From Infirmifilum sp. (GTDB lineage: Archaea; Thermoproteota; Thermoprotei; Thermofilales; Thermofilaceae), in NCBI GenBank assembly GCA_041287245.1, contig JBEULP010000002.1, forward strand, positions 1-30,995: DNA of 30,995 nucleotides, written 5' to 3'. The notes beneath the pieces were generated by a model that was not told the origin of the DNA, did no database searches, and saw nothing but the letters and a program-made list of their open reading frames with translations. Shown in pieces: positions 1,880-2,863 of the stretch. Made by a program: the position numbers and the translations under genes. Position 1 is the first letter of the stretch, and every line of letters starts with the position of its first letter.

Positions 1880-1986
1880 CTGACCTCCTTCCCGCTCTAA
1901 AGAGCGGGGGTTCTTGCGGGGAGGTTTGAGGCTATATCCCCAGCTGTGGCTGGGTTTAGCCTCGCGTCCGGTCTTGGGCGCGTTAC
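1880..1986 (-). mobile_element. Orphan IS200/IS605 right end / omegaRNA-like module, interrupted at 1986 by the tnpB element
   Basis: Minus strand: GAAC + CCCCGCTC-TTTA-GAGCGGGA hairpin + AGGAGGTCAG. An upstream stem-loop GAGGCTA..CCCAGC-CACA-GCTGGG..TAGCCTC is also present. Confidence 0.75.
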
Positions 1987-2031
1987 AACTGAAAGCCTCG
2001 CCCTTTAGGGCGGGGATGGATGTCTGTAAGA

Positions 2032-2039
2032 TTTAAATA
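2032..2039 (+). promoter_or_regulatory. TATA box for tnpB
   Basis: TTTAAATA ~22 nt upstream of ATG 2061, consistent with a leaderless transcript. Confidence 0.5.
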
Positions 2040-2060
2040 CTATGCTTTTTAGGTTCGATT

Positions 2061-2740
2061 ATGCCTCTCCCAGGTTTGGCCACCCGTGAGGGGGGTCACG
2101 TCCTAGTGGGAACCTTGAAGTTAAAGATGACGGTTCCGCCTAAGGACCTGGGGGAGGTCGTCAGACGATATGCTGAAGCGAAGAGATTTGTCCTAGGATG
2201 GCTCTACGAACACAAGACCACGAAGCCCGCCGACGCCCACCACTACAAGACGCTGGCTGAGGAGCTACAGGGGAAGTACCCCAGACGCTGGAGGGAGAAC
2301 GAGAGAATACTACGCAGAATCAGACACTTCCACAAGAGGGCCAGAAACATCCTGCTAGACTCTGCAAGGAAAACCGGCAAGTCCGTCGCCGAGGAGGCGG
2401 AGAAGCTCGGCGCCAACGCCGTTGTCCTTGAGGACTTGAACAAGATGATGAAGCAGGTGAAGAAGCTGAGGAAGGAGCATAGGGACAGGCTATACCTCAT
2501 GCAGTACAATAGGATACAATGGTGGATAGCATGGCAAGCCGCGAAGCACGGTCTACAAGTCGTCTACGTGGACCCTAGGGGCACTTCGTCGACCTGCCCC
2601 TACGACGGGGCGAAAATGGTTGAGGTTGGGCATAGGACCCCTTCCGTTGCCCCAGGTGTGGCTAAACGGACAACCGCGACTTAATCGCCATTAAAAACCT
2701 GTATGGGAGGGGTCTCCGACCCTCTCAACTGCCCCCTAAT
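2061..2740 (+). pseudogene. tnpB: TnpB RNA-guided endonuclease pseudogene (internal deletion, frameshift, nonsense codon)
   Basis: RuvC-II VVLEDL and [12 protein letters not shown] are present. The Zn ribbon FRCPRCG and Ruv[14 protein letters not shown] follow in a shifted frame from ~2641, with a TAA at 2663-2665. The RuvC-I region is absent (junction ~2240). Confidence 0.9.
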
Positions 2741-2830
2741 GCGGGATGTAACCCCGAACTAAGGGGGAACCCCCGTCCTGGAACCCTCGCCCTTAGGCGG
2801 GGAGGAAGTCAGCTTCCAGTGACAGTGGGG
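2705..2830 (+). ncRNA. Putative omegaRNA/reRNA of the tnpB element (scaffold to 2812, guide from flank 2813-~2830)
   Basis: Stem-loops overlap the tnpB 3' end and the right end, matching established TnpB reRNA architecture. Boundaries are approximate. Confidence 0.55.
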
Positions 2831-2838
2831 TTTTTATA
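2831..2838. promoter_or_regulatory. TATA box (TTTTTATA on +, TATAAAAA on -)
   Basis: Lies ~25 nt upstream of ATG 2864 and also reads as a TATA box on the minus strand. Confidence 0.5.
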
Positions 2839-2863
2839 CACGCGCCTGTATTATTCCCCGGAG

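What the first reader, a model, noticed from the sequence alone, without database searches (positions are those of the whole stretch)
1880..2840. Nested insertion: the tnpB element appears to have split a stand-alone omegaRNA-like gene on the opposite strand
Seen: a complete IS200/IS605 right-end module with extra stem-loops lies on the minus strand at 1880-1986 and abuts the TTAC of the tnpB element's left end. Excising 1987-2812 rebuilds the minus-strand sequence TATAAAAACCCCACTGTCACTGGAAG|GTAACGCGCCCAAGACCGGACGCGAGGCTAAACCCAGC...GAAC-hairpin-AGGAGGTCAG. That is a TATA box about 20-25 nt ahead of a ~105-nt structured scaffold, followed by the flank CTGGCGGATGTCACCGGG as a potential guide, with no protein gene. 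Inference: this was a self-promoted, tnpB-less omegaRNA gene, knocked out by a second element. The second element's guide (2813-2830) plus TTAC would match the intact allele.
Basis: partly seen in the sequence, partly recalled or inferred. Interest (0 to 1): 0.75.

Follow-up and report, generated by a model that had tools for sequence, protein, structure and literature searches.

The report
Transposon stump cut by second transposon
The 107-base structured piece is the cut-off right end (guide-RNA scaffold) of an IS605-type jumping element that a second, now dead, element likely landed in; it is ordinary transposon debris rather than a stand-alone RNA gene with its own promoter, though the same landing spot recurs in other archaea.

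Summary
Sequence description confirmed; the self-promoted RNA gene is not supported. 1880-1986(-) is positions 36-145 of a conserved 145-nt RNA at the 3' end of IS605 tnpB elements (104.6 bits). All 26 other copies examined keep a 5' hairpin that is missing here. The DNA beyond the tnpB element (2813-2847) is not that missing part: it scores like random DNA, whereas the same test detects a real split in another archaeon. The TATA box fits the plus strand (5.4 vs -1.7 bits), 33 nt before the DUF3782 gene, near this genome's modal spacing. The inserted tnpB lacks RuvC-I and is frameshifted; no TnpA and no empty allele were found. The nested hit itself is well supported: the scaffold's conserved GTAA is a TTAC target on the other strand, and the same junction recurs in two other archaeal families. 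Best reading: nested insertion, then loss of the rest by an adjacent deletion (inferred). Gene-less omegaRNA elements are already described. The scan noted a similar nesting on other DNA. Interest 0.27.

The parts
1880..1986 (-). 5'-truncated omegaRNA scaffold and right end of element 1 (IS605-type); three of four conserved hairpins, ends TCAG
   Evidence: 104.6 bits; model positions 36-145
1864..1879 (-). host flank after right end 1 (would be its guide); no other match within 1 mismatch, and no TAM-preceded match, in the genome
   Evidence: the DNA left of it (1740-1871) aligns to the upstream region of a paralogue on contig C69
1983..1986 (+). TTAC: target of element 2's left end and, on the other strand, the conserved GTAA of the scaffold
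1987..2016 (+). left end of element 2 (guide AAAG 1992-1995, hairpin 1996-2014)
   Evidence: 36 of 36 identical to a G006 tnpB element incl. TTAC; IS608 GL AAAG/CL TTAC in PMC5934647
2032..2039 (+). predicted TATA box of tnpB, 29 nt before its ATG (13.4 bits); near-palindromic, also 9.5 bits on the minus strand
2061..2773 (+). tnpB pseudogene: about 149 codons missing incl. the RuvC-I aspartate, frameshift near 2640 and an in-frame TAA
2707..2812 (+). omegaRNA region and right end of element 2 (ends GTCAG)
2115..2785 (+). segment absent in a shorter allele seen in one contig of run X3; bounded by a 6-nt GGAACC repeat
2813..2830 (+). host flank after right end 2; not the missing 5' part of the scaffold
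2831..2838 (+). predicted TATA box of the DUF3782 gene, 33 nt before its ATG
2864..3724 (+). DUF3782 / PD-(D/E)XK_10 gene (host)

Best explanation
1880-1986 is the right-hand stump of an IS605-type element that likely was hit by a second IS200/IS605 element at the TTAC on the opposite strand of its omegaRNA scaffold and then likely lost its 5' part, so what remains is predicted to be inert debris. Shown: homology to tnpB 3' ends and to gene-less mini-elements; truncation at the TTAC; unrelated far flank; broken tnpB. Inferred order: (1) element 1 inserted on the minus strand upstream of the 356-1735 gene; (2) a TTAC-targeting element 2 integrated into the scaffold's antisense TTAC|C; (3) element 2's right end was rejoined to a site just upstream of the DUF3782 promoter, deleting the rest of element 1 and the DNA between - most simply a TnpA reaction in which the resident right end is cut at TCAG and a downstream TTAC is cut through the left-end guide, as in the integration step; (4) tnpB decayed. 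The TATA box at 2831 serves the DUF3782 gene (predicted). About 0.9 for 'truncated remnant, not a self-promoted gene'; about 0.5 for step 3 as written.
For: Homologues overlap a tnpB 3' end in 15 of 26 other loci; 5 of the 26 have a left end within 215-331 nt by the script's motif; four gene-less paralogues lie in this genome. The 5' hairpin motif is in 25 of 26 by pattern and in the 26th by eye; its helix is 90% paired with changes on both sides in 2 of 8 pairs. Far flank: anchored score 5.2 vs 22-35 for 14 true 5' parts, 25% of 300 random 35-mers score as high; HMM 86.6 bits vs 86.1 +/- 2.1 for 300 random joins and 98-115 for 13 true 5' parts (these 13 were in the training set). Positive control: a G653 right-end flank scores 20.9, carries an inverted tnpB 3' end and lifts the HMM from 55.9 to 72.8 bits over positions 2-145. 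Twin in G448: same cut, 103.1 bits, inside a third tnpB gene that lacks 193-199 nt against 6 homologues, with GTAA right at the left junction in a 97% identical copy. Promoter: +5.4 vs -1.7 bits, genome peak at -30 to -32, forward TATA at -30 to -37 in 6 of 6 family-level homologues.
Against: No empty or pre-deletion allele of this locus was found, so the order of events is inferred. The far flank shares short words with the missing hairpin (ATA..CCCC..GTC..GGA), although not above chance. The plus-strand TATA is weak (5.4 bits, between the 50th and 70th percentile, poor BRE). In G448's host gene the four bases before the right junction are CTCC, CTAC, CTCC, TTCC, CTTC, GTCC in 6 homologues - compatible with, but not showing, a TTAC. 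Two separate insertions followed by a deletion give the same end product. I found no paper describing TnpA-made adjacent deletions (listing only).
Confidence: 0.8

Rival explanations
1. Two independent insertions, head to head: element 2 always sat upstream of the DUF3782 gene, element 1 nearby on the other strand, and a deletion between the scaffold's TTAC and element 2's own TTAC fused the stump to the left end.
For: Gives the same junctions; fits the ~196 nt missing from the host gene in G448 and the unrelated far flanks in window, G448 and G653 C161. IS ends cluster here (third end at 3850-3894).
Against: Needs two insertions close together in opposite orientation each time; one clean nested split is seen in G653 (C63 flank, probably the other half of C40), so direct nesting does happen.
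Confidence: 0.3
2. Guide-conflict selection: a clean nested insertion gives element 2 a guide plus TTAC motif matching every intact copy of the scaffold in the genome, so mainly derivatives that swapped the right flank survive.
For: Far flank is not the remainder in window, G448 and G653 C161 (scores 5.2, 2.3, 6.8); no true right-end-plus-remainder hit among 401 genomes (3 matches, none real) and 1 among 251 (7 matches), and that one departs from the consensus at guide position 2.
Against: Very few cases; one retained remainder exists; patterns were strict; cross-targeting by these TnpBs is untested; ordinary decay also removes IS DNA.
Confidence: 0.15
3. One reading: a self-promoted, tnpB-less omegaRNA gene (TATA 2838-2831, scaffold, guide) was split by a clean insertion.
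For: TATA-like run 26 nt from the scaffold start after removal of 1987-2812; a relative (G087, L141) does have a 13-bit BRE/TATA 28 nt before a full scaffold, so such cassettes exist.
Against: Scaffold lacks its 5' hairpin; minus-strand promoter score -1.7; far flank random; the rejoined 5' region folds at -3.9 vs -12.5 to -23.1 kcal/mol in 13 homologues; no TnpB of the cognate subfamily in the assembly; no target for the guide.
Confidence: 0.04
4. The stump plus element 2 moves as one composite with a right end at each side.
For: Same layout in three families.
Against: Window and G448 modules are only 79 of 114 identical and the inner elements differ; host DNA is missing at the G448 site; single-strand transposition needs both ends on one strand (PMC5027513 passages); no second copy in this genome.
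Confidence: 0.03

Closest known systems
PATEs / gene-less IS200/IS605 elements carrying an omegaRNA (Meers et al., PMC10055086, passages read)
   Same: Transposon right end with omegaRNA scaffold and no protein gene; four such 215-270 nt or degenerate elements of the same subfamily lie in this genome.
   Different: This copy has no left end of its own and lacks the scaffold's 5' hairpin.
Standalone omegaRNAs acting in trans (Altae-Tran et al., PMC10691335, passages read)
   Same: Scaffold followed by a flank-derived guide, no effector gene.
   Different: Those are complete and were shown to work with a compatible effector; here the scaffold is cut and no cognate-subfamily TnpB was found.
HgcC (Rfam RF00062) / archaeal sotRNAs at IS1341-type tnpB 3' ends (PMC4615843, passages read)
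   Same: Shares the terminal hairpin and GGAGGUCAG end (29.1 bits, E 3e-4).
   Different: Below the gathering score (50); inner helices differ.
IS608 left-end chemistry (Morero et al., PMC5934647, passages read)
   Same: Element 2 has guide AAAG and target TTAC as IS608; a C at +1 favours weak targets, and the scaffold offers TTAC|C.
   Different: Right end here is GAAC/TCAG rather than GAAT/TCAA; no tnpA in the element or the assembly.

Membership tests
IS200/IS605 right end with TnpB omegaRNA | Subterminal hairpin with 4-nt guide 5' of it and a fixed cleavage tetranucleotide | tested here: met
   GAAC, hairpin 1909-1891, TCAG; similarity among homologues stops at TCAG
IS200/IS605 right end with TnpB omegaRNA | Homologous to the structured RNA overlapping tnpB 3' ends | tested here: met
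   104.6 bits; 15 of 26 homologous loci overlap tnpB; covariation in 12 of 31 pairs, 0 of 500 shuffles as high
Standalone / PATE omegaRNA | Complete scaffold | tested here: not met
   model positions 1-35 absent with or without removal of 1987-2812
Standalone / PATE omegaRNA | Own left end (PATE) | tested here: not met
   no left-end motif in register on the minus strand within 1 kb
Standalone / PATE omegaRNA | Own promoter | tested here: not met
   best minus-strand score at 2800-2870 is -1.7 bits; a prediction, not a measurement
Standalone / PATE omegaRNA | Expressed as a discrete RNA | not testable with these tools
   no RNA holder listed
Standalone / PATE omegaRNA | Compatible TnpB in trans | tested here: inconclusive
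   no cognate-subfamily gene by tblastn (best E 6e-6, 31% over 90 aa); two full-length TnpBs of other subfamilies on C86 and C82; assembly in 119 contigs
IS1341-type (tnpB-only) element, 1987-2812 | Left end after TTAC, tnpB, right end | tested here: met
IS1341-type (tnpB-only) element, 1987-2812 | Intact RuvC nuclease | tested here: not met
   reference residues 80-227 incl. Asp208 missing; frameshift and stop
Clean nested insertion | Both halves of the interrupted element flank the insert | tested here: not met
   far flank 5.2 vs 20.9 in the positive control
Rfam HgcC RF00062 | Score at or above gathering threshold 50 | tested here: not met
   29.1 bits

The most novel reading that the evidence does not exclude
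The omegaRNA of this archaeal IS605 subfamily carries a built-in TTAC|C landing site on its antisense strand; elements that land there acquire a guide against every intact scaffold in the genome, and TnpB self-conflict selects for TnpA-made right-end deletions that swap the guide - which would explain why the same stump-to-left-end fusion recurs in three archaeal families, mostly without the cut-off half.
Probability: 0.15. Interest if true: 0.6.

Novelty: new member of a known kind. Interest (0 to 1): 0.27.

Why it matters
As it stands it is IS200/IS605 debris, useful mainly as a caution: in-silico excision of these elements need not restore the ancestral site, because the two flanks can come from different places. 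By-products of value: a 145-nt covariance model for the omegaRNA of a widespread hot-spring archaeal TnpB subfamily (35 of 120 genomes of the class), and a recurrent IS-in-omegaRNA junction. If the guide-conflict reading held, it would be a direct, testable case of TnpB elements policing where their relatives can insert.

Tried and rejected
Empty allele: not found in 40 relatives (no syntenic locus), 24 metagenome loci of DUF3782 relatives (39-63% best-segment identity bar two at 34-37%; none matched 2813-2900), an exact 22-nt scan of genome contigs (0), or three DNA runs of one study (no 1986-to-2813 joint; contigs only, so absence is not shown). No RNA holder listed. Left-end scan of viral contigs: 0. 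Bacterial promoter scan not applicable. Degenerate homology of 2813-2850 to the missing hairpin: looked suggestive by eye, rejected. Insertion hot spot: not shown - G653 has 72 exact left ends and 32 model hits; with about 11,000 TTAC sites as in G000 about 0.2 hits are expected at random and several if only non-coding sites are tolerated, against 2 scored and 2 by-eye cases. The genome-contig scan for the junction returned only the two G653 cases and missed G448, so it is no census. Misassembly: unlikely, one X1 contig spans 1808-3145 with one difference and an X3 contig carries both junctions (X1 may be the source sample). Literature: five searches (listings only except the papers cited) showed no title or abstract on insertion into the omegaRNA GTAA; PMC12558985 had no relevant passage for my terms. 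No supplements were read; they may bear on whether such nestings are described.

Full report
Setting. The window is contig C38 of a 1.81-Mb, 119-contig assembly of 50% G+C, held by three hot-spring metagenome runs of one study; a genome the tool places in the same phylum is titled Desulfurococcales archaeon. The finding lies between two divergent host genes: 356-1735(-), no Pfam match, and 2864-3724(+), DUF3782/PD-(D/E)XK_10.

Observation. The letters are as described. The minus-strand module 1880-1986 folds better than all 200 shuffles (z -3.5) and weakly matches Rfam HgcC (29.1 bits, threshold 50), a family linked to IS200/IS605 right ends (PMC4615843, passages). Its first bases, GTAA, are the TTAC preceding the plus-strand left end.

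What the module is. It has four paralogues in this genome at 73-76% identity (C29, C69, C55, C86); on C69, C86 and C55 they form the 3' part of gene-less elements with their own left end 215-270 nt from the right end. In G006 the homologue is the 3' end of a tnpA-tnpB IS605 element. A model from 13 homologues without the window has 31 pairs, 12 with changes on both sides (related sequences inflate this), hits 35 of 120 genomes of the class and scores the window 104.6 bits without matching the first helix. I examined 26 other loci, those returned for the better hits plus one: 15 overlap a tnpB 3' end, 25 carry the 5' anchor by pattern and the last by eye; only the window lacks it. So the module is the 3' three-quarters of an omegaRNA, cut at GTAA.

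Is 2813 onward the missing part? No. Anchored at the junction it scores 5.2 against 14 homologous 5' parts, which score 22-35 against each other; 25% of 300 random pieces and 28% of 200 shuffles do as well. With a profile HMM the excised allele gains 2.7 bits, like random joins (86.6 vs 86.1 +/- 2.1; true 5' parts 98-115), and it does not form the hairpin. A positive control shows the test works: in G653 a right end is followed by the inverted hairpin and tnpB 3' end (20.9; HMM 55.9 to 72.8 when put before the G653 C40 stump; that the two contigs adjoin is not shown).

The TATA box. TATA-like motifs in 848 upstream regions of this genome peak 30-32 nt before the ATG. A BRE/TATA matrix trained on them gives 5.4 bits on the plus strand at 2831, 33 nt before the DUF3782 ATG, and at best -1.7 on the minus strand. 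Six of six family-level homologues of the gene have a forward box at -30 to -37 (26 upstream regions listed in all). It is a weak promoter, but it points away from the module.

Element 2. Left end identical over 36 nt to a G006 tnpB element, guide AAAG and target TTAC as IS608 (PMC5934647, passages). Its tnpB lacks about 149 codons including the RuvC-I aspartate and has a frameshift and a stop. No TnpA was found in the assembly; two full-length TnpBs of other subfamilies were. One X3 contig carries a further 675-nt deletion between GGAACC repeats: the element is still decaying. No empty allele was seen.

Recurrence. A junction pattern hit 2 of 401 genomes: this one and G448, of another family. 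G448 has the same stump cut at the same GTAA (103.1 bits) fused to a tnpB element's left end, 79 of 114 positions identical to the window's, inside a third tnpB gene. A 97% identical copy of that gene in G408 has GTAA directly at the left junction, so element 1 arrived by normal TTAC-targeted transposition; the gene lacks 193-199 nt against 6 of 10 homologues that could be aligned at both junctions, so host DNA was deleted with the rest of element 1. A looser pattern over 251 genomes (52 with matches, mostly chance or ordinary left ends; I followed up 20 returned loci and 5 G653 stretches) added G653 C40 (71 bits) and C161 (23 bits), and two by-eye cases, C18 and C23. Of 71 distinct left-end junctions in fetched loci and this genome, 5 have an inverted scaffold piece, one (G408) cut at another GTAA (a selected set). 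Far flanks score 5.2, 2.3, 6.8, 9.4, 0.1 and 3.1, against 20.9 for the one kept remainder. A hot spot is not shown.

Mechanism. Shown: stump, truncation point, unrelated far flank, dead nuclease. Inferred: nesting at the built-in TTAC|C, then rejoining of right end 2 to a downstream site, for which TnpA's integration chemistry (right end cut through its guide, target TTAC cut through the left-end guide; passages) would suffice on a resident element; that last extension is my inference. Two separate insertions plus deletion give the same product. Selection against a guide that matches all intact scaffolds could bias what survives, but rests on a handful of cases and one counter-example.

Comparison and verdict. 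An earlier scan note (e1-5334893) reached a similar 'ordinary nesting' verdict on other DNA; I did not test it. New member of a known kind; interest 0.27.

Noticed in passing
window 3850-3894 (+): Minimal single-hairpin IS200/IS605-type element after TGAC, ending GTCAG; close copies on C72, C86 (two or three), C69 and C6, and TTAC-type single-hairpin elements on C25 and C82.
   Followed up: partly
L141 (G087:C62:17883-18010, -): Left-end-like hairpin followed by a 13-bit BRE/TATA 28 nt before a full scaffold with no tnpB: a much better candidate for a self-promoted, gene-less omegaRNA cassette than the window's; G087 has further hits of the same length.
   Followed up: partly
L169 2213-3750 (G448:C1), L215 and L289 (G653 C40, C63), L216 (G653 C161), L225 (G408:C1): Independent cases of a left end inserted at a TTAC antisense to an omegaRNA; G653 C63 keeps the cut-off half.
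   Followed up: yes
runs X1-X3, on window 1985-2016: A 172-nt contig carrying the left-end hairpin at depth 1500-1900, against 2-20 for other contigs laid: a very high-copy mini-element or collapsed repeat in the community.
   Followed up: no
L288 (G546:C1:1565421-1565443, -): A CRISPR spacer whose sequence resembles an IS200/IS605 right end (ends GGAAGGAGGTCAG plus flank), between repeats of an array.
   Followed up: no
window 356-1880 and G000:C69:64050-65473: The left host gene has a paralogue (62% aa; about 90% nt near the start) whose upstream region carries a different 50-nt mini-element a few bases from where element 1 ends here; the window has 32 extra nt at about 1813-1844.
   Followed up: partly
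window 2032-2039: The tnpB promoter TATA is near-palindromic and scores 9.5 bits leftward, so the stump could be read through from inside element 2.
   Followed up: no
window 1976-1982 and 2840-2846: A 7-nt inverted repeat on either side of element 2 that dominates the fold of the excised allele; probably chance.
   Followed up: no
window 2993-3340: DUF3782 gene has internal coiled-coil repeats, incl. a near-perfect 75-nt duplication at 3112-3261.
   Followed up: no
window 42-260 (+): Short nucleotidyltransferase (NTP_transf_2) ORF of 72 aa, apparently truncated or frameshifted.
   Followed up: no
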